Origin: a virus
Taxonomy: Duplodnaviria; Caudoviricetes
IMG/VR virus record: IMGVR_UViG_3300031949_000079
Coordinates: 1 to 43,602 of that record
DNA: 43,602 bases
Direction: 5' to 3' (one strand)
Shown here: one piece after another, positions 1-43,602 of the stretch
Numbering within the stretch: the stretch's first letter is position 1
Layout of the letters: each line of letters starts with the position of its first letter
Translations under genes and position numbers: made by a program
Notes under the pieces: model-generated
What the model was told of the DNA's origin: nothing
The model's input: the letters and a program-made list of their open reading frames with translations, nothing else
Databases searched by the model: none

Positions 1-141
1 TATCTCGGCGCCTCTATAGACAAGATTATTAATGCCGGATTACCGGCTGACGCACCAGCCAGTCAAGTCAAGGGTCAGGATTTCCTGATGGGTAAGATAC
101 TGGAGATGAAAATGACACCAGGCCACATGATATTCAGCCGG
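1..141. repeat. Terminal direct repeat, copy 1 (circular-assembly overlap)
   Basis: 1-141 matches 43462-43602 except T15 vs C43476 (TCT/TCC, synonymous Ser in the ORF crossing the join). Confidence 0.97.
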
Positions 142-462
142 GAGGCCAAGGAGGACAGACCTCAGGATTGCTGGGAGGTTATCGGAGTAGAGGGATTCAC
201 CTCACCAGTATCAGCACCAGCCATATCACAGGCTGCGGCAGGTGCATCACAAGCTGCTCCCAAGTCTGCCGTTCAGGAGGCACTGACCTTACTAGATGGC
301 AAGACCGAGCAACAGTGGAACCAGGCCATCTTCAACAGCCCAATCATCAAGGCTGACGCCAACCTAATTAACCTTATCCTACAGCGTCAGTTCCTATCAT
401 CACTGGAGACGGTCGGAACTGTGATCAAGGATGGTGATGGCATTTATCATGTTCATAGGTAG
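1..462 (+). CDS. 3' part of a ~244-aa hypothetical protein spanning the circular join (starts at 43189); replication/recombination module
   Basis: Frame is open from ATG 43189 through the overlap into ORF 88..462; lies upstream of the Cas4-like and Sak4-like genes. Confidence 0.8.
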   Translation, partial: YLGASIDKIINAGLPADAPASQVKGQDFLMGKILEMKMTPGHMIFSREAKEDRPQDCWEVIGVEGFTSPVSAPAISQAAAGASQAAPKSAVQEALTLLDGKTEQQWNQAIFNSPIIKADANLINLILQRQFLSSLETVGTVIKDGDGIYHVHR

Positions 463-476
463 GTTACAGGCAATAA

Positions 477-586
477 TGCCTTAAACCGAAACTAGGTAGT
501 ATCAGCAAGGTTAATGACCAGGAATGGTTGAGACAACCAGAATCTACCTAGTCCCAGAGTTAGTCTCTGGCTGATGAGGTGAGGCA
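477..586 (+). ncRNA. Type II hammerhead self-cleaving ribozyme; predicted cleavage after GUC at C553
   Basis: GAAA 488-491; stem III ACTAGGTAG 491-499 / CTACCTAGT 544-552; C553; stem I CCAGAG 554-559 / CTCTGG 565-570; CTGATGA 571-577; stem II GGT-GAGGCA 578-586 with TGCCTT-(AA)-ACC 477-487. Confidence 0.9.
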
Positions 587-588
587 AA

Positions 589-723
589 ATGATAGATTGC
601 AAAGAATGTCAAGGGTGCATAAACAAGGATATTTGTCCAGAGGGATACATTTGCCTGAGCTTGAAAGATATACGGGAAAAGTTGCCTAATGAAATAGATC
701 CAGCAGAGGCCTCATTTTACTAG
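589..723 (+). CDS. 44-aa Cys-rich microprotein (MIDCKECQGCINKDICPEGYIC...)
   Basis: Manual translation; GGTGAGG SD just upstream of ATG 589; TAG 721-723. Confidence 0.65.
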   Translation: MIDCKECQGCINKDICPEGYICLSLKDIREKLPNEIDPAEASFY

Positions 724-744
724 GAAAGGATTAACAACTGAATA

Positions 745-1089
745 GCTTGCTGGTGTCCAGGATGTAGCCCATCTTTGCCCTACACAATGACCACGACATG
801 ATAGGGAGTCAAAATGGCTTAGTACACGGAACACAGGATAATGATACTGTCCACGCTGACGTGGAGCGTTGCGGTAAGCCGACCATCGTGACTATCGCAG
901 GTGCATAGGAGGCGTACTGATAGGATGTATGGGCGTTGTGTGACTTGGCGTGAACCAATCTATCAGGGTATCAACGAGCCAGCAAGCCTGCCAGCCACCC
1001 AAACCATAAAGACAATAAGGAATGGGCAAGGGTGAAATCCCCTAACCGAGTAGCAGGGTAAAGTGGGCTACTGGCTGGCAGCAAGCCTG
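745..1089 (+). ncRNA. Candidate large structured non-coding RNA, family not recognised
   Basis: No credible ORF; many nested helices, e.g. GCTTGCTGG 745-753 / CCAGCAAGC 979-987, GGCTTA 816-821 / TAAGCC 875-880, TCCACG/CGTGGA 850-865, CTGATAG 917-923 / CTATCAG 960-966, CTGCCAGCCA 988-997 / TGGCTGGCAG 1072-1081. Confidence 0.6.
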
Positions 1090-2829: not shown

Positions 2830-3656
2830 TACTCGGATTGTATGGTGAGGACAAAACTTGCAAGAGTACCCTGTCACTATCTGCACCTAAGCCAATGGTC
2901 TACATGCAATTTGACATTGGTGGGTTCCAACGTGCCTGTCGTAACTTACCTCATCTACCCATCAAGGACTGGTACAATCAAGGACTAATCAAGGTCGAGG
3001 ATTATGTCATGCCGTTCCAGATTGGTAGTTTGGACCCAGTCACCAGCATTATACGGCCGAGCAAAATCCTTGTTGGTGTTGAGGAGTTGTTCTATGTATT
3101 TGCAACCAACTTCCTCAAGCACCTGTATGATGGTACAGTCACCATCGTTGTGGACACCAGCACTCTTCTCTATGAGGTTACATGCCTTGGCTATCTCCAG
3201 GAGAAGCAGGAACTACAAATGCCATTACAGGCTAATGGTAAGGGCAGGGATGATAAGCCACTAAGGACTCAACTCCAGCAACAGGAATACCGTGAGCCAT
3301 ATATCAGGATGCGTGGATTCACATATCAAGCAAAGGCAGCCAAGAAGAACCTAATCCTTGTTCACCATGCTACTGATGAATATGGGTTGATGAGGCAAGG
3401 TGATGGCACCATGGGTCAGGGCAAGACAGGCAAGAGGGTGCTACATGGATGGGGCCAACTTGGTGATAGTGCAGACATCATAGGCAAGACCTACGTCAGG
3501 ATGGAGACTATACCTAACACCAACCCTCCACAGAGGAAGATTACACCGTGCTTCAAGATTGAGTTGGCCGAGGTCAAGGAGTTAGAAGGTGTTGAGATAC
3601 AGGAGCCAACATATGATAAGTTGGCTGGGATGATAAGGATGATAAGGGGTGAATAA
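2826..3656 (+). CDS. P-loop ATPase, Sak4/AAA_24-like recombination protein
   Basis: Walker A variant LYGEDKTCKST, Walker B TIVVDT, NLILVHH motif; next to an exonuclease. Confidence 0.7.
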   Translation: MILGLYGEDKTCKSTLSLSAPKPMVYMQFDIGGFQRACRNLPHLPIKDWYNQGLIKVEDYVMPFQIGSLDPVTSIIRPSKILVGVEELFYVFATNFLKHLYDGTVTIVVDTSTLLYEVTCLGYLQEKQELQMPLQANGKGRDDKPLRTQLQQQEYREPYIRMRGFTYQAKAAKKNLILVHHATDEYGLMRQGDGTMGQGKTGKRVLHGWGQLGDSADIIGKTYVRMETIPNTNPPQRKITPCFKIELAEVKELEGVEIQEPTYDKLAGMIRMIRGE

Positions 3657-23054: not shown

Positions 23055-26000
23055 CTATCCTGTAATAGAGGTCTTGTCCCTCTCAAAAGCATCCAACATA
23101 GCCTTGGCCTCCGGTGTTTTCTGACTATCAACATAGCCAAAGACGTTCAGCCAGAAGTCCAGCTTTGGTGATACTTGACGCATGGCACCTCGGGCCTGGG
23201 TGAGCTTACGAGTATAACTTGATATAAGCTGATTACCAGTGGTTGGGTCCAACATAGCCTCTATCTCATCCTTACGAGAAGAGGTTGTGGTATCAGCATA
23301 ATACTCACTGATGAGGGCTTTCTGGTCCTCAGCATATCCTGCAAAAATTATCCTGGAGGCGGCCTGATAGCCCCTAATATAATTGTTGTAGGCTGTACGG
23401 AATACCTCCTCCATGGGAGTCTCGTACCTTCTGATGTAGGACTCAAACTCAGACCTCAAGTCCTCTGGTAGTGCCATCTTAACTGCCTCACGCTGTAGCC
23501 AAAACTTGAGGTAGTTATAATCCTCCTCACCAGTGTATGGGTCCTTATCCTTCTCCAACTTAATATTGAAGTAGAGGTCAAGGGCTTCATCCATGGGACC
23601 AAGGGTAGGTACAGAGAAGTTCAGACGCTTCATAAGTTTGACCTGACCCTCCGGAGTGAGGGCATCTATGGCAGGTGCAAACCTCTCACTGTTCTTCAAA
23701 TCCTCAACATCCTTGGAGTAGTCAGCCCAATTCTCTGCATGTTCCTGTCTCCACTCGGCACCATTATAGTGCACCTCAGCAGTGGGAGTGATAAAGCCTG
23801 TATCAATGCTGGCCTCACTGGTCAACCGCTTCTGTTGGGCATCCTTAGTGGCATTGAAGTATTCATCAATCAGGGAGTAGATGTCTTGGACGTCAGGTGG
23901 CATCATAGTCACACCACGGCCAAAGTAGATTCTCCACTGCCACACCTCATCCAATGTCTGTCGGAGGTCAAGAGGTAGGCCACCAACAACATCAGATGGT
24001 CTCTTGTTGTGCTTCCAGAGATTATCTTGGAACTCCTCAGACATACCCAACTGCTCTTTGAATATCTGGGTGACTTGTTTGTATGCCTCCAGATATTGCT
24101 CTGTCCTCAACCTCAGTTGTGGGAACTGTGACCTCACTACTCCGTACCATGCAGCCTCACGGTAGGATTCATCCCAAAGTAGCTGCTCCTCAGGAGTGAA
24201 GGCTTCCTTCCTCAGTTTCTTGTACCACAGGTCTGTACCCGATTGTCCACCTATCAACTTACCACCAGACTCTACCTGCTTGGTACTGACTATGGTGGTG
24301 GCATAGTATTGTTGCAAGTTGTCATGGAATACCTTATCCTGCAACCATTGGGCTGCACTGGATACACCTGGTATATTGGAACTAACCAGCAATCCAAGTC
24401 CAGCTTTGGGTAGGGATGGTAGGGCTCCACCAAGTTCTGGTGACCTACCAGAGAGAATTGGGGAGAGGACTATAGGCAACATGACATGGGCACCTGGGAA
24501 GGCACCAACTCTTTGGGAGAAATCAAGGACTTCACCCATTGGGCCAAGGTTGGAATAGTAGGATACAAAGTCATGGCGTGCTAGGCCAAAGGTAGTACCA
24601 AACATGGAGCCAGTGAAGGGATTAACTTCAAGGTCTGTACCTGGAATGTGTTGATAGCCTTGGTCTGAATAGTTGTAATACTTGCCCCAGGCAGCCATTA
24701 GGCCAGGATGCTTCATAGCTAATCTGGGGAGTTCAAACCATTTGTAGAGGGTGTAGGTCCAGTAAGGATAAATCATCTTCATGGATGCATCCACGATGTT
24801 AGGATTGGAGTAGTCAGCGAAGGTCTTGTAGTAGTCTTTGAGGGCGGAGTCAAGGGACTCCTGGCGGAGTTGGTTGAGGTTCTTATACTCCTGTTTCAAC
24901 TGTGGCTTCTCCTGCTGTAATTTTTTTATTAGTGGCTTGATACGTTTCCTATACAAACCTATATTTCGTAATGATTCCTCAACGTTTGTCGGTTTTCCAA
25001 GTTTAAGAATATCCTCAGTGGTTATACCTACCCTATCACGTAGTATACCTGTTAAACGGTCAAGCTCAGATTGCGGTAAATAACCTCTTTCATACCCGGT
25101 CTGCTCCAGCCTGGATAATATATTGTCAGCCCACACAAGGTCATCCATACCAACCTTTGCCAGAGTAATACTGGTGTACATTTCCTTCTCGGCATTATCA
25201 GCCACATTATCTATCCACCCAGCAAGTGCCTTCTCCTCATTAGGCTTGAGACTCCTGGTCATCCTCAAAGTCATTAACTCCTGCTTCATTCCTTCCATCT
25301 GCATCAGTATCTTTTGCTGTGCCACATCCATATCAGGGGACATCTTCATGCCTCTGAGGATATCATCATAGGCTGACTCTATCTTTTCCTCAGTAAACCC
25401 ACGATACAAGTTGGGTTTGGAATCAGCCTTGGCCATAGCATATTTAACAAACCTAACCTTACTTTGCATGGCCATATTCTCTGCTATACCAGAGGACAAG
25501 GCATCAATGTTACAACCAAACAATTTGGCCACGTCATCTGCTGACAAGGCTCGGTTGGATGCATCCACCGGTATCAATCTAGGCTCAGGTAATTTCTGAT
25601 AAAGTTTGGCGAATTCCTTCCTAGACAGCATCTCACCGGCACCTATCTCAGCGGCCTCTTGACGATACTTAAGCCATGCCTCTGTCCTATAGGCTCTCAA
25701 GGCAGTATGCTCAGCCTCAGTTCTTTGCATCTTGGGCAAGGCCCAGAAGTCATCTAGGAGTTGGCCATCTGCTCTAAATGTTGCCTCCCAAAGGGCATCA
25801 CCATCAGAGGAACGGTCAAGGACTACATTCATGGCAGCCTGCTGGTCTGGAGTTAGCTTACCAACATTCTCAGCTATCTTTGTCCTCACTGTCCCCATAT
25901 TATCACTAACCTGGGCCATGGTATCTATCATCTGTTGCCGGTCAGTTCTCCATAATTGCTCCACCTGGCTGAACTTCCTGGCTGCATAGAGAGCATCAGC

Positions 26001-28913
26001 CTTCCTAGTTGTCTCAGCCATCAGTTTGGTAGGGATATTGCTGAAGGTGGTGGACATAACTTCATAGGTTTGGAAGACATCCATCAAATCATCTAGGGTG
26101 GTTAGTTCTCTACCTGATATGTCTGTGGCCAGTTGACGGAAGGAATCAGCCACATCTATGGGATAGTGCCTGAGGTCGGAGATGGATTGGTCAGCTACCT
26201 TCTGGACAAAGTTGGTGATGCTATCATTATCCTTGAGGACTATGCTCCAATCAACCACATCATCAACCATATCCCTGGCTGTTGGAGACATCAGGGTGTA
26301 TTTCCTCAATCTCTGCCTAGCTTCATCACCCATCAAGCTAAGGTTGGTTAGCTTGGTTTTCATAGCCCTCAATCCATCAATATCACCAGCCACCAAATGC
26401 TGCCAAGCCTGTCGTTGTAGTTCATCCTGAGTTAATCCCAGTCTCTCCTTAGCTATCTTTGGGGAGCCTTTAGTGATTCTATTCAGGACAGCATTGAGGT
26501 CATGGCCTTCCACATCATAGAGTTTCTCTACCAGGTACTTGGACATCCGCTTCATAATGAAGTTGCGGCGGATGGCATTACCCCAATCATTAGATAGGTC
26601 TATCCACTTACGACCAAACCATTGGCCTATTTTGCCTCCTGGCAACAATGTTATACCAACCCTCTTCCCAAGTATCCCTCCTGGTTCAGATGCAATCTTA
26701 GCTGCGACATCGGCTGGACCTCCAATTAACCCCTTAGTCATAATGTTGTAAGCCTCAATCTTAGGAAAGCCTGGAGTAACACCCTCAATGACACTAATGG
26801 CCATACCTTCTAGTGCATTCCAGAACGGATAGCTAATGTTACCAAGATAGGCTTCGGCAAGTGGTCGGACAATGAATCGGTCAACACCCATACGGAAGGA
26901 ATGATTTGACACCTTATCCAGACCATTCTGTAGGCCAAGAACAATGCCTTTCATCACATGACCATCTGCACTCTGTCCCTTGACCGTCACCTTAAGTATA
27001 TCTCGCTGTCTGGTCTTGAGATAGTCCAGCATCAATGACACACCACCAACTGTTGCCGACTTACCTATCTGTGTGGCTCTGGCTATGTTGGTAGATAACC
27101 TATCAGAGTATGTGGCTATATCCCTAATCAACCTACCTATGACCTCTGGAGTATCATTGATTTGGAGAGCTATAGCCATCCTCTTGGCGTTCTCGGTTGG
27201 GGAGCCAACCTTCCTCAATGTGTCTCGGATGATGTCATTAACCTCAGCTATTCTGGCTGTGGTAAACTCAATGGTCTTGTCACCACCTCTGGACCCAGCC
27301 CAAATGATTATCTTATCCTTACTCAATGGGACAAAGTCTGAGAGGCTACGACCAAAGTCAACCAATGGGTCTCCAACAGCATTAGGTGTGGCTCTGAAAG
27401 CCTTAACTGCTTCCTCCATGGTCTTAGAAATATCATCAGGCTTCAACTCATGGATGGCCTTGCCTGTAATCTTACTTACGGATGGATATAGTTGGCTCTG
27501 CATAAAGTCATCCAACCTAGCTTTGATTATCTGGTCAAAGGTCTTTGGGAATCTGCTCCACACAGCCTTCATGGCACTGGGTAGGAAGTCCAGAACCTGA
27601 TATAAGCCCTCATTCACACCAATCATGGTACTACCTAACGCCTTCATGGCACCAATACCAAATCTGCTACCAGTCTTTAACAGAATCTTACCAGGTAGAC
27701 TCAATGCAATTCCTGGCACGTAGGTTAGAGGGTCTGTTGGCAATTCAATCAGGAGTTTCCAGTACCAAGCAGCATCCCACTCCTGCTCTGCTTTACCTAA
27801 GGATGTCCATGGGTTGATACCGGCGGCCCTATATTGGTCATATAGTTTTTCAACATCAAATGGACCTGTTGGAGATATTTTGGATGCAAGATAGATGGCA
27901 CCACCAGCCAATGGATATGATACATCCTCTAGGTATGGTTTCATTATGTCAGCAACAGCCTGCATTGGTTGTTGGGCGATGAACAATAACCGCTGCCAGG
28001 TCGTGGTCTTAGGCACCTCCCACTCTCTGACTCCGGCAAGTACCTCACCAATCTGTGCCTGTTGCTCTTGGGCGGCCTTGGCCAGCATACTCACCATCTG
28101 GTCCATATCCATAGCTGCATTGACAACATCATCAGGTATGTCTAACAGGGACGCCACCTTGAACAACTCCTCCTCGGTCATACCTTCTGGCATCTTAGCT
28201 GTCCATGGTGTGGTGAGTGCCTTCTTTATCTCATCAATGGTCATTTGATTGATACTGACTGGGATGGCCGTAGGAATTGGCTGCTCCAGAAACGCTCTAA
28301 CGGCCTCCTCTTGTCCTGGTTCTACCTGCATGAATTCGGGTAGTGTACCCTCCACCTTCTTGATACCCAAAGTAGCTATGGCATCATTAGCCTCATCAAT
28401 ATCCTGTTGGCTGATGTACTCTGGTGTGGTGACACCAAGAGCCTTCATATAATCATTGTAGGAGGAGACTTTGCCACCAGCAACAAGCATAGGTATGGAG
28501 GTATAGAAGTCCATGAACCACTGAGCTTTTGCCACAGTAAGGACTATCTGCTCATTCTGTTGCTTCTGGCGTACAATCTGCTCCTCAGGTAGCTCTGTAA
28601 CTACTCCACCTAACCCAGCCAATTCACCTTGCATAAAGGCTGGAGCTTGTATAAGTTGCTGCCAAAAAGAGAGCTTCCTATATTCCTGCAACCTCTGTTC
28701 TGAGGTGGGTGTTACTTTTGGTACAATGGAAGGATACACTATGGAGGTTACATTTCCTGACACAGCTGTATTCGCCTTGAACTGCTCCTGCCACCACTCC
28801 TTACGTCCTGCTATGCTAGGTATAGCCACACTAGGAATTGGTTCAGGCCAGGGCTGCTCCCAGGGTGGAGGTTTGTATGCTTTAATACGTTTCTGGAACT
28901 CTGTATCTGGCAT
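23055..28913 (-). CDS. Very large internal virion / DNA-ejection-type protein
   Basis: 1952 aa, largely helical; DPLTY motif often seen in podovirus ejection proteins; follows the portal. Confidence 0.65.
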   Translation of the reverse strand: MPDTEFQKRIKAYKPPPWEQPWPEPIPSVAIPSIAGRKEWWQEQFKANTAVSGNVTSIVYPSIVPKVTPTSEQRLQEYRKLSFWQQLIQAPAFMQGELAGLGGVVTELPEEQIVRQKQQNEQIVLTVAKAQWFMDFYTSIPMLVAGGKVSSYNDYMKALGVTTPEYISQQDIDEANDAIATLGIKKVEGTLPEFMQVEPGQEEAVRAFLEQPIPTAIPVSINQMTIDEIKKALTTPWTAKMPEGMTEEELFKVASLLDIPDDVVNAAMDMDQMVSMLAKAAQEQQAQIGEVLAGVREWEVPKTTTWQRLLFIAQQPMQAVADIMKPYLEDVSYPLAGGAIYLASKISPTGPFDVEKLYDQYRAAGINPWTSLGKAEQEWDAAWYWKLLIELPTDPLTYVPGIALSLPGKILLKTGSRFGIGAMKALGSTMIGVNEGLYQVLDFLPSAMKAVWSRFPKTFDQIIKARLDDFMQSQLYPSVSKITGKAIHELKPDDISKTMEEAVKAFRATPNAVGDPLVDFGRSLSDFVPLSKDKIIIWAGSRGGDKTIEFTTARIAEVNDIIRDTLRKVGSPTENAKRMAIALQINDTPEVIGRLIRDIATYSDRLSTNIARATQIGKSATVGGVSLMLDYLKTRQRDILKVTVKGQSADGHVMKGIVLGLQNGLDKVSNHSFRMGVDRFIVRPLAEAYLGNISYPFWNALEGMAISVIEGVTPGFPKIEAYNIMTKGLIGGPADVAAKIASEPGGILGKRVGITLLPGGKIGQWFGRKWIDLSNDWGNAIRRNFIMKRMSKYLVEKLYDVEGHDLNAVLNRITKGSPKIAKERLGLTQDELQRQAWQHLVAGDIDGLRAMKTKLTNLSLMGDEARQRLRKYTLMSPTARDMVDDVVDWSIVLKDNDSITNFVQKVADQSISDLRHYPIDVADSFRQLATDISGRELTTLDDLMDVFQTYEVMSTTFSNIPTKLMAETTRKADALYAARKFSQVEQLWRTDRQQMIDTMAQVSDNMGTVRTKIAENVGKLTPDQQAAMNVVLDRSSDGDALWEATFRADGQLLDDFWALPKMQRTEAEHTALRAYRTEAWLKYRQEAAEIGAGEMLSRKEFAKLYQKLPEPRLIPVDASNRALSADDVAKLFGCNIDALSSGIAENMAMQSKVRFVKYAMAKADSKPNLYRGFTEEKIESAYDDILRGMKMSPDMDVAQQKILMQMEGMKQELMTLRMTRSLKPNEEKALAGWIDNVADNAEKEMYTSITLAKVGMDDLVWADNILSRLEQTGYERGYLPQSELDRLTGILRDRVGITTEDILKLGKPTNVEESLRNIGLYRKRIKPLIKKLQQEKPQLKQEYKNLNQLRQESLDSALKDYYKTFADYSNPNIVDASMKMIYPYWTYTLYKWFELPRLAMKHPGLMAAWGKYYNYSDQGYQHIPGTDLEVNPFTGSMFGTTFGLARHDFVSYYSNLGPMGEVLDFSQRVGAFPGAHVMLPIVLSPILSGRSPELGGALPSLPKAGLGLLVSSNIPGVSSAAQWLQDKVFHDNLQQYYATTIVSTKQVESGGKLIGGQSGTDLWYKKLRKEAFTPEEQLLWDESYREAAWYGVVRSQFPQLRLRTEQYLEAYKQVTQIFKEQLGMSEEFQDNLWKHNKRPSDVVGGLPLDLRQTLDEVWQWRIYFGRGVTMMPPDVQDIYSLIDEYFNATKDAQQKRLTSEASIDTGFITPTAEVHYNGAEWRQEHAENWADYSKDVEDLKNSERFAPAIDALTPEGQVKLMKRLNFSVPTLGPMDEALDLYFNIKLEKDKDPYTGEEDYNYLKFWLQREAVKMALPEDLRSEFESYIRRYETPMEEVFRTAYNNYIRGYQAASRIIFAGYAEDQKALISEYYADTTTSSRKDEIEAMLDPTTGNQLISSYTRKLTQARGAMRQVSPKLDFWLNVFGYVDSQKTPEAKAMLDAFERDKTSITG

Positions 28914-42864: not shown

Positions 42865-42894
42865 TTGACAGACTGAGTGCCTTTGTGCTATAAT
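42865..42894 (+). promoter_or_regulatory. Sigma70 promoter, probably leaderless, heading the recombination/replication operon
   Basis: TTGACA-18-TATAAT with extended TG; ATG 42900 begins 6 nt after the -10 and has no SD. Confidence 0.8.
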
Positions 42895-43046: not shown

Positions 43047-43189
43047 AAACAACCATCACAACCAAAACAGAGACACCAAACGAGGATACTGGGCTGACGA
43101 CAGTTACCATAGTATCCACAGAAGGTGATGAGGCAACAGCAGTAGTCACCATGCACAAACAGGTTATAGAAGAATTAGAGGAGGAATAA
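43043..43189 (+). CDS. 48-aa Thr/Glu-rich protein
   Basis: Manual translation; coupled at both ends. Confidence 0.55.
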   Translation: MKTTITTKTETPNEDTGLTTVTIVSTEGDEATAVVTMHKQVIEELEEE

Positions 43190-43602
43190 TGGCAAACGAG
43201 ACACCAGTACCACAGGAACAGGTATTAGCCCAATTACGGACAAGAGGGTTTGAGGACGGATTTCAACGGACACCACTCCGGCATTTCAAGGGTAAGCTGG
43301 ACAAGATTGGTGGCCACATGATTGATAGGTTCGCACCACCCAGACTTGAGGTAATCTATACATTCAGTGAAATGGAGGTCATTGACTCCACCGAACCTTA
43401 TCTGGCACCAATAGCTGACCTCACCATCCTGCACAGTTCACGGAAGAAGTCAGCGATGGGTTATCTCGGCGCCTCCATAGACAAGATTATTAATGCCGGA
43501 TTACCGGCTGACGCACCAGCCAGTCAAGTCAAGGGTCAGGATTTCCTGATGGGTAAGATACTGGAGATGAAAATGACACCAGGCCACATGATATTCAGCC
43601 GG
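43189..43602 (+). CDS. 5' part of the join-spanning ~244-aa protein (continues to 462)
   Basis: ATG 43189 with GAGGAGG SD; frame open to the window end and in frame with 88..462. Confidence 0.8.
   Translation, partial: MANETPVPQEQVLAQLRTRGFEDGFQRTPLRHFKGKLDKIGGHMIDRFAPPRLEVIYTFSEMEVIDSTEPYLAPIADLTILHSSRKKSAMGYLGASIDKIINAGLPADAPASQVKGQDFLMGKILEMKMTPGHMIFSR
43462..43602. repeat. Terminal direct repeat, copy 2
   Basis: 140/141 identical to 1-141. Confidence 0.97.

What the first reader, a model, noticed from the sequence alone, without database searches (positions are those of the whole stretch)
745..1089. ~345-nt unrecognised structured RNA with complementary hairpin loops and two alternative closing stems
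Seen: a large ORF-free stretch packed with helices. CAGCAAGCCTG occurs twice (980-990, 1079-1089), so the 5' GCTTGCTG can pair with either copy. Hairpin GTAG-CCCATCTTTGCC-CTAC (764-783) and hairpin GTAGC-AGGGTAAAGTGG-GCTAC (1050-1071) are near reverse complements, allowing a kissing loop or a long duplex. ACACAATG (782-789) can pair with CGTTGTGT (934-941) inside the CTGATAG/CTATCAG stem, giving a pseudoknot. A GGG-TGAAAT-CCC loop lies at 1030-1041. Inference: a new phage ncRNA or conformational switch, possibly matured by the hammerhead ~190 nt upstream. Ribozyme + Cys microprotein + large RNA is the best candidate for an undescribed system in this window.
Basis: partly seen in the sequence, partly recalled or inferred. 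Interest (0 to 1): 0.8.

Follow-up and report, generated by a model that had tools for sequence, protein, structure and literature searches.

The report
Phage array of tRNA-shell RNA modules
The stretch is not one RNA but two and a half units of an uncatalogued, conserved phage array of stem-closed RNA modules that likely descend from tRNAs, keep a tRNA-like top half around exchangeable contents, and are predicted to be cut out of the early phage transcript by host tRNA-processing enzymes.

Summary
About 125 phage and metagenome loci show a tandem array, usually in the order A-B-C-D, behind an SSB-like gene. Each module has a sequence-conserved closing helix and a variable interior. The window holds A (745-987), B (988-1081) and only the 5' half of C (1085-1096). 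The second CAGCAAGCCTG is just the B end joined to the C start. Covariation and G·U bias support RNA on the + strand. A tRNA origin is likely for A: one A-slot element scores as an Rfam tRNA (39.5 bits), and a T-loop-like motif lies 18-19 nt before the helix end in 37 of 103 copies (tRNA: 18; null about 0.9 per position). No CCA is encoded. The long A-B duplex is predicted to be more stable in this window, but such complementarity appears in only 3 of 64 loci, the chance rate. The type II hammerhead is real but found at only 4 distinct loci; the microprotein has no homologue. Function is inferred: processing by host RNase P/Z. Nothing was found in Rfam or the papers searched.

The parts
42865..42894 (+). 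Perfect sigma70-type promoter upstream of the SSB-like gene (genome is circular); likely drives the transcript that contains the array
   Evidence: 12 of 12 consensus match; no terminator-like site in 1-2000 or after 42100; 43462-43602 repeats 1-141
43189..43602 (+). 5' part of a 244-aa OB-fold, SSB-like gene that wraps round the origin and ends at 462
   Evidence: P0016; AlphaFold pLDDT 89; best Foldseek rows are OB folds (PrgE E 4.5e-3, Stn1, SSBs), none at E<=0.001
1..462 (+). 3' part of the SSB-like gene; the array lies downstream of this gene in most relatives
478..585 (+). Type II hammerhead ribozyme: GAAA 488-491, stem III 492-499/544-551, predicted cut after C553, stem I 554-559/565-570, CUGAUGA 571-577, stem II 578-580/485-487
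   Evidence: fold z -3.47; strict descriptor hit, 0 in the reverse-complement control; no Rfam hit
589..723 (+). 44-aa Cys-rich ORF; orphan, not a conserved part of the array
   Evidence: no homologue; best tblastn to fetched loci E 0.21
731..744 (+). Conserved A/U-rich leader (TTAACAAYTRAATA type) directly before the first module
   Evidence: 30 of 111 distinct upstream segments match with <=2 substitutions; single site in the window
745..987 (+). Module A: closing helix 745-754/978-987; second helix 886-889/974-977 placed by homology only; unusually long interior
   Evidence: model R1, built without the window, hits 744-988 at E 8e-5, the only clear hit in the genome; covariation; the second helix has P about 0 in the window's own ensemble
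769..817 (+). Insert sub-motif within A shared with one relative (L142), with a stem that changes on both sides; possible small pseudoknot
   Evidence: found in 2 of all fetched loci; 0 further hits in viral contigs
988..1081 (+). Module B: closing helix 988-997/1072-1081, short arm after the junction, GGG-UGAAAU-CCC hairpin 1030-1041, stacked helix 1050-1054/1067-1071
   Evidence: z -2.86; U-A/C-G covariation in the closing helix
1085..1096 (+). 5' half of module C; its 3' partner strand, present in relatives, is missing here
   Evidence: no C match in the window genome
1104..1119 (+). Shine-Dalgarno and start codon of the next ORF (1117), followed by a PD-(D/E)XK exonuclease gene (1754) and an AAA_24-like ATPase gene (2826)
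   Evidence: SD predicted accessible in both folds, 0.76 and 0.72 unpaired

Best explanation
The stretch is module A, module B and half of module C of a conserved tandem array of phage RNA modules, which are likely tRNA-derived shells that host tRNA-maturation enzymes are predicted to cut out of the early replication/recombination transcript. Shown: each module is closed by a sequence-conserved helix of 6-10 bp; in A and B a second helix stacks directly on it along the 3' strand; the interiors vary freely in length and sequence; modules follow one another with linkers of a few bases, mostly in the order A-B-C-D, between the stop codon of an SSB-like or other gene and the next ribosome-binding site. 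Inferred: module A keeps the acceptor stem + T stem + T-loop-like 'top half' of a class II tRNA and has lost or replaced the D and anticodon arms. Predicted and untested: RNase P cuts at the G of GCUGGU and an RNase Z/exonuclease route trims the 3' end, splitting the mRNA between the SSB and exonuclease genes, as the hammerhead in the same slot would, and releasing stable small RNAs that carry the variable contents.
For: Family: modules in 18 of 23 distinct SSB-anchored viral loci (17 by fuzzy search; L013 by eye; 26 loci less 3 duplicates). Unique copies in 126 loci: A 110, B 92, C 35, D 42. Structure: A alignment 88% paired, 33 double changes, 0 of 500 shuffles as high; B closing helix U-A/C-G swap in 11 of 55; deviations in closing helices are 22 G·U and 18 Watson-Crick swaps against 7 A·C. 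Stacked second helix in A 50 of 98 (shuffle mean 12.6) and B 40 of 84 (16.4). tRNA link: the element in the first slot of L203 has the A leader and A closing helix and scores 39.5 bits as RF00005. L398's A copy and the D copies of L001 and L020 carry a Leu-type D-arm start; L398 and L001 also have a T-arm-like hairpin. An intact tRNA follows the array in L110. Ruler: G[CGT]G[AG]A[AG] in 50 of 98 A copies (shuffle 5.6); of 103 copies, 23 have the motif 18 nt and 14 have it 19 nt before the last C of GCCAGC, null about 0.9 per position; these 37 fall in 36 clusters. In that register -1 is U in nearly all copies and position 8 is mostly U. RNase P cleaves acceptor + T-stem + T-loop model substrates and measures 12 bp from the T-loop (PMC11143913, passages). 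Same slot as hammerheads, which are proposed to process phage polycistrons (PMC3088659, passages).
Against: No encoded CCA: positions 73-76 read AAGN in 86 copies. The register is ambiguous: the true tRNA of L203 uses the same helix shifted by 2 nt, so the 12-bp fit depends on a register chosen from one example (L184). The T-loop-like motif usually sits in an enlarged loop, often starts with G, and is absent at that position in 66 of 103 copies, including the window's own. It is not enriched in B, C or D, and the stacked second helix is not significant in C (8 of 31 vs 5.4) or D (8 of 36 vs 4.4). Covariation in C is not above shuffles. The closing helices are nearly invariant, partly because the search patterns fixed them, so covariation there is thin; near-invariance suggests sequence-specific binding, which RNase P does not need. 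The A, B and C helices do not match the acceptor stems of the class II tRNAs printed for the one candidate host genome. Hammerhead stem III in L011, L014 and L190 resembles the A or D helices, allowing another origin. No expression data.
Confidence: 0.4

Rival explanations
1. The modules are anticodon-less tRNA mimics whose main job is to bind and titrate a host protein that reads tRNA top halves (a tRNA-modifying or tRNA-cutting defence toxin, a synthetase or a stress sensor); any processing only serves to release them.
For: Near-invariant helix sequences across phages whose SSB-like proteins share 30-55% identity fit sequence-specific binding. Anticodon arm lost (6-nt loop even in L203). Arrays in L038 and B in L407 stand near terminator- or promoter-like sequences, as separate RNAs might (read by eye).
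Against: No partner protein is conserved beside the array. No CCA. Host unknown. Most arrays lie inside an operon with no terminator. Five of 23 SSB-anchored loci lack A-C.
Confidence: 0.2
2. The modules are cis-acting helical signals unrelated to tRNA maturation: RNase III-type cut sites, mRNA-stabilising ends, or put-like antitermination elements.
For: Stacked helices of 14-17 bp in A; fixed position right after a stop codon and near the next ribosome-binding site (median 25 nt, 47 of 93 within 30 nt); one array per genome.
Against: Does not explain the T-loop-like motif at tRNA spacing or the tRNA-like members. Helices are short for RNase III in B-D (recalled requirement about 20 bp).
Confidence: 0.15
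3. Module A (and perhaps D) is a hammerhead-derived or new self-cleaving ribozyme, and the array is a train of self-processing RNAs.
For: Hammerhead stem III in L014 (CCAGCAGG/CCUGCUGG) differs from the A helix at one pair, in permuted order; in L190 module D is hammerhead stem III; L035 has D followed by stem I and CUGAUGA without GAAA. Self-cleaving ribozymes cluster near certain gene classes (PMC5737381, passages).
Against: A lacks CUGANGA and GAAA, has G at the would-be cleavage position and no stem I (alignment). It fits none of the six block orders of PMC10085705 (section 11 part 1). No pseudoknot is conserved.
Confidence: 0.1
4. One reading: one 345-nt RNA that switches between two closing stems through the 764-783/1050-1071 pairing, matured by the hammerhead.
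For: In this window the long-duplex fold is -118.9 kcal/mol against -102.7 to -110.6 for modular folds; the duplex is matched by 1 of 300 shuffles; A closes first during transcription (P 0.999 up to 1050) and is then predicted to be displaced.
Against: Not conserved (3 of 64 loci). L142 shares the A insert yet keeps both modules (P 1.0, 1.0). The SD is equally open in both folds, so no output is predicted. With the 3' tail to 1135 the gap is about 5 kcal/mol.
Confidence: 0.08
5. The array is a decaying cluster of tRNA pseudogenes with no present function.
For: Modules are often lost or truncated (C in the window; none of A-C in 5 of 23 loci); interiors diverge freely; A in the window folds no better than shuffles.
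Against: Helix sequences, junction bases, loop-motif spacing and module order persist across very divergent phages.
Confidence: 0.05
6. The modules are C4/CI-like antisense RNAs: a fixed, RNase P-matured scaffold whose variable loops pair with phage or host targets.
For: Same design as C4: conserved closing stem, variable loop, RNase P maturation (PMC5320573, passages).
Against: No excess of own-genome matches in 10 genomes: 85 vs 92.6 (11-mers), 30 vs 25.3 (12-mers), 5 vs 7.2 (13-mers). No Rfam C4 hit. Targets of 7-9 nt or host targets are not excluded.
Confidence: 0.07

Closest known systems
Class II tRNAs (Leu/Ser/Tyr; Rfam RF00005)
   Same: One A-slot member scores above the gathering cut-off; acceptor-like helix, U8, stacked T-stem-like helix and a T-loop-like motif at tRNA spacing in A; Leu-type D-arm starts in some A and D copies.
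   Different: The window's modules and nearly all others score as no tRNA; no anticodon arm, no canonical D/T loops, no CCA; interiors of about 20-220 nt.
Allo-tRNAs and polycistrons of irregular tRNAs (Mukai et al., PMC5389517; part 2 of the text and passages read)
   Same: Tandem irregular tRNA-like units with altered acceptor/T-stem split, some not used in translation.
   Different: Those keep cloverleaves and anticodons and are tied to Acidobacteria and toxin-antitoxin loci; these lack anticodon arms and sit in phage replication operons.
Phage P1/P7 C4 antisense RNA (PMC5320573, passages) and P4 CI RNA (recalled)
   Same: Phage small RNAs with a conserved closing stem and variable loops, cut from a longer transcript by RNase P.
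   Different: No sequence or Rfam match, no self-targets found, four different scaffolds in fixed order.
T4 RNA C and RNA D (PMC9697503, passage: function unknown; tRNA-like ends recalled)
   Same: Phage stable RNAs of unknown function linked to tRNA biology.
   Different: They lie in a tRNA cluster; the 10 genomes scanned here encode no ARAGORN tRNA.
Bacterial Y RNAs, YrlA (PMC4201824, passages)
   Same: tRNA-like domain in a non-coding RNA, also in phages; one is cut by RNase P.
   Different: YrlA is permuted, keeps D and T arms, has a GNCGAAN0-1G Ro-binding motif and lies next to Ro60; no TROVE hit among 54 window proteins.
Type II hammerhead ribozymes of phages (PMC3088659, passages)
   Same: 478-585 is a full member; same intergenic slot as the array; stem III resembles module helices in three relatives.
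   Different: Modules A-D lack the catalytic core.

Membership tests
tRNA (RF00005) | Cloverleaf scoring above the Rfam cut-off or called by ARAGORN | tested here: not met
   Window: 0 hits. Met only by the L203 first-slot element (missed by filters) and the separate tRNA in L110.
tRNA (RF00005) | Acceptor stem stacked on a T stem with a T-loop 12 bp from the 5' end | tested here: inconclusive
   Family A: motif at 18-19 nt in 37 of 103, register ambiguous; the window's own A lacks it; not enriched in B-D.
tRNA (RF00005) | Anticodon arm with 7-nt loop | tested here: not met
   Alignments A2, A3; 6-nt loop in L203.
tRNA (RF00005) | 3' CCA encoded or added; aminoacylation | not testable with these tools
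   Not encoded; addition after trimming cannot be tested.
RNase P substrate (C4/CI-like) | Cleavage by RNase P at the base of the closing stem | not testable with these tools
   Geometry only.
C4 antisense RNA | Loops complementary to sites in the same genome | tested here: not met
   exact 11-13-mers in 10 genomes.
Y RNA (YrlA) | Adjacent Ro60/TROVE gene | tested here: not met
   No TROVE among 54 window ORFs; no Rfam hit.
Hammerhead ribozyme, for modules A-D | CUGANGA, GAAA and NUH core with three stems | tested here: not met
   Descriptor hits lie outside A and B; core absent from alignments.
Type II hammerhead, for 478-585 | CUGANGA, GAAA, GUC and stems I-III with stem II open | tested here: met
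Type II hammerhead, for 478-585 | Self-cleavage after C553 | not testable with these tools
   Needs an in vitro assay.

The most novel reading that the evidence does not exclude
These phages turned a tRNA cluster into a programmable small-RNA cassette: four fixed tRNA-top-half sockets, each holding an exchangeable structured cargo (tRNA bodies, hammerhead stems, orphan folds), are excised by the host's tRNA maturation machinery and act as anticodon-less tRNA decoys against tRNA-targeting defence.
Probability: 0.2. Interest if true: 0.9.

Novelty: new variant of a known kind. Interest (0 to 1): 0.7.

Why it matters
It adds four RNA motif families that Rfam 15 does not list, with about 280 distinct copies in hand. 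It shows what looks like a series from a recognisable tRNA to a minimal helix-plus-bulge unit in one genomic slot that hammerheads also occupy. If the processing model holds, phages use tRNA top halves as punctuation and as carriers of variable RNA cargo, invisible to tRNA finders. The short copies (50-70 nt) make the test cheap: RNase P, self-cleavage and probing assays need only in vitro transcripts.

Tried and rejected
Rfam: no gathering hit in the window or in 20 relatives; only noise at E<=10. blastn against 50,697 GenBank phages: only 20-23-nt matches at E 8. Exact 20-mer of the A start in viral contigs: 0. One conserved switch: rejected. Ribozyme + microprotein + RNA system: rejected. 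Self-targeting antisense: no excess; the window's 12-nt complement of the A 5' strand at 3152, in the ATPase gene, was not seen as a conserved site in 9 other genomes. K-turn at the shared U·G/G·A junction: rejected by eye, because the partner strand gives Watson-Crick pairs rather than tandem G·A. ARAGORN at 80% threshold gave noise. Host: 6 of 7 GTDB pattern hits were chance matches by eye; one Dehalococcoidia MAG contig with phage-like genes is real. R1 hit 1 of 151 genomes of that class, the same MAG; the SSB profile hit 1 of 401; the B pattern 0 of 401 in the phylum. So the host is only tentatively Dehalococcoidia, and no chromosomal copy was found in those searched. Sequencing runs: no RNA holder listed. 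Earlier findings: none by sequence or place; word search gave other families. Literature: ten searches found no description.

Full report
Setting. The window is a complete phage genome of about 43.46 kb; its last 141 bases repeat its first. It encodes a GP7-type major capsid protein, a terminase, DNA polymerase A and an AAA_25 helicase. The finding lies in the replication/recombination region: perfect sigma70 promoter (42865-42894), OB-fold SSB-like gene (wraps to 462), hammerhead (478-585), orphan 44-aa ORF, the flagged stretch, then an ORF, a PD-(D/E)XK exonuclease and a weak AAA_24 ATPase. No terminator-like site lies between promoter and array, so the stretch is likely part of a polycistronic mRNA.

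Observation. All listed motifs are present at the stated coordinates. The stretch as a whole folds no better than shuffles (z -1.36; the minus strand gives -2.17). Its 3' part 988-1081 does fold better (z -2.86); 745-987 does not (z -0.42). Rfam and ARAGORN find nothing in the window.

Homologues. Loci were first collected without using the RNA, through the exonuclease and an alignment of 67 SSB-like proteins (26 loci, 23 distinct). Downstream of the SSB-like gene 18 of 23 carry related modules (17 by fuzzy search, L013 by eye), L011 carries only a hammerhead, and four show none of A-C by eye (the middle was cut; those loci were read). A fuzzy search of 126 retained loci gave 110 distinct A, 92 B, 35 C and 42 D copies; it includes a few false copies, and reverse-complement hits (10, 26, 27 and 5 loci) are expected for inverted repeats. 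The commonest orders are AB (30), ABC (22), ABD (19), A (15) and ABCD (9). A-B linkers are 1-3 nt in 69 of 78 cases. B also occurs without A. Of 64 A+B loci, 21 have an SSB-profile hit upstream; others lie by exonuclease, helicase-loader, HNH or unknown genes. Nine of ten related records show A copies at one site each.

In relatives the 5' GCUUGCUGG pairs with the first copy, which is the end of module A. The second copy in the window is the end of B, a linker and the start of C, whose 3' strand is missing here. The 1050-1071 hairpin is the conserved stacked helix of B. Both closing helices form in the ensemble in 53 and 55 of 64 loci, and A-versus-B interior complementarity reaches p<=0.05 in 3 of 64. 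The window is one of the three: its long duplex is predicted at -118.9 kcal/mol against -102.7 to -110.6 and 1 of 300 shuffles matches it. A private switch is therefore possible, but A closes first during transcription, the SD is equally open in both folds, and L142, which shares the A insert, stays modular. A full hammerhead was found at four distinct loci; the microprotein has no relative.

Structure and strand. For 56 of the 87 A copies of suitable length, chosen by hand for a clear second helix, 88% of cells pair and 33 cells change on both sides (0 of 500 shuffles); most of that signal is in the two variable pairs that extend the second helix. For 55 B copies one closing pair swaps U-A/C-G in 11. 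For 21 C copies the changes are mostly G·U and not above shuffles. Across the closing helices deviations are 22 G·U, 18 Watson-Crick swaps (15 in B), 7 A·C and 12 other, which favours RNA on the + strand over a DNA hairpin. A helix contiguous with the closing helix on the 3' strand is enriched in A and B but not in C or D. A, C and D share a Y·G pair followed by G·A at the junction, though these bases were part of the fuzzy patterns. The search patterns fixed parts of the A and B helices, so their invariance is overstated.

The tRNA link. In L203, a contig with phage-like genes in a Dehalococcoidia MAG, the conserved leader is followed by an element with the A closing helix and a full class II cloverleaf with a 6-nt anticodon loop (RF00005, 39.5 bits; missed in the larger scan), then by A, B, C and D. 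L398's A copy and the D copies of L001 and L020 start with a Leu-type D-arm sequence, and L398 and L001 end in T-arm-like hairpins. In ordinary A copies a G[CGT]G[AG]A[AG] motif is enriched ninefold (50 of 98 vs 5.6). I predicted a spacing of 18 nt from one example (L184) and found 18 in 23 and 19 in 14 of 103 copies against about 0.9 per position, in 36 sequence clusters. In that register the invariant GCUGGU/GCCAGC is acceptor pairs 1-6, with U at -1, mostly U at 8 and A at 73. Against this: no CCA; the L203 tRNA uses the helix shifted by two; the motif is in an enlarged loop; the window's A lacks it at that place; B-D do not show it; and the class II tRNAs of the MAG have other acceptor stems. 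That the motif folds as a T-loop is inferred from recalled T-loop consensus.

Mechanism. Bacterial RNase P cuts acceptor + T-stem + T-loop substrates and measures 12 bp from the T-loop; T4 tRNA precursors have spacers under 5 nt and can lack CCA, though CCA is preferred (PMC11143913, passages). Phage hammerheads are proposed to cut polycistrons into shorter mRNAs (PMC3088659, passages). The array shares its slot with hammerheads and sits between a stop codon and an SD. I therefore commit, at 0.4, to host tRNA-maturation enzymes cutting the modules out, which would punctuate the SSB-exonuclease mRNA and release stable small RNAs. The array and its helices are shown; tRNA descent is inferred (about 0.65 for A and D, less for B and C); processing is predicted. 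Rivals are decoy function, non-tRNA cis signals, a hammerhead-derived ribozyme (stem III of L014 differs from the A helix at one pair; in L190 D is stem III), C4-like antisense (no self-target excess), the private switch, and neutral decay.

Novelty. No Rfam family matches A-D. Ten paper searches found no description. I read passages of PMC5389517 (also part 2 of the text), PMC4201824, PMC5737381, PMC3088659, PMC11143913, PMC5320573 and PMC9697503, and the outline, section 11 part 1 and section 17 of PMC10085705, whose one held supplement had no motif hit. For PMC10690425, a scan of viral genomes for structured RNAs, I saw the listing and searched four supplementary tables without hits; its alignment archives and PDFs could not be read, so the motifs may be among its unnamed candidates. 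Most subscription journals are not in the library. I rate it a new variant of a known kind, phage tRNA-like non-coding RNAs, with interest 0.7.

Noticed in passing
L203:1038-1123 (-): Class II tRNA-like gene with a 6-nt anticodon loop and no CCA, using the module A helix and leader.
   Followed up: yes
L190, hammerhead directly after module B: Module D forms stem III of a complete type II hammerhead; L035 (and by eye L074, L009) has D followed by stem I and CUGAUGA but no GAAA.
   Followed up: partly
window 769-817 and L142:1078-1125: Shared insert motif inside module A with a two-sided stem change and a possible small pseudoknot; only two examples.
   Followed up: partly
L110:356-446 (-): tRNA with UAU anticodon and an unusually long variable region right after the array.
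   Followed up: no
L038, around 1212-1600: A+B between two terminator-like hairpins in front of an HNH gene, a different genomic context; a possible hammerhead-like segment upstream.
   Followed up: no
L407, module B at 229-319 (-): B alone about 15 nt behind a sigma70-like promoter, in a 5' leader.
   Followed up: no
L491/L490 region of G403 (second piece, near 26370 +): A second type II hammerhead elsewhere in a relative's genome, away from the array.
   Followed up: no
window 466-476 and 1128-1138: Exact 11-nt direct repeat flanking hammerhead, micro-ORF and array, 662 nt apart; may be chance.
   Followed up: no
window 43189-43602 + 1-462: SSB-like family with an OB-type N-terminal domain and a helical C-terminal domain; no Pfam or PHROG family, 71 relatives found.
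   Followed up: partly
window 23055-28913 (-): 1952-aa virion-region protein with no Pfam or PHROG match.
   Followed up: no
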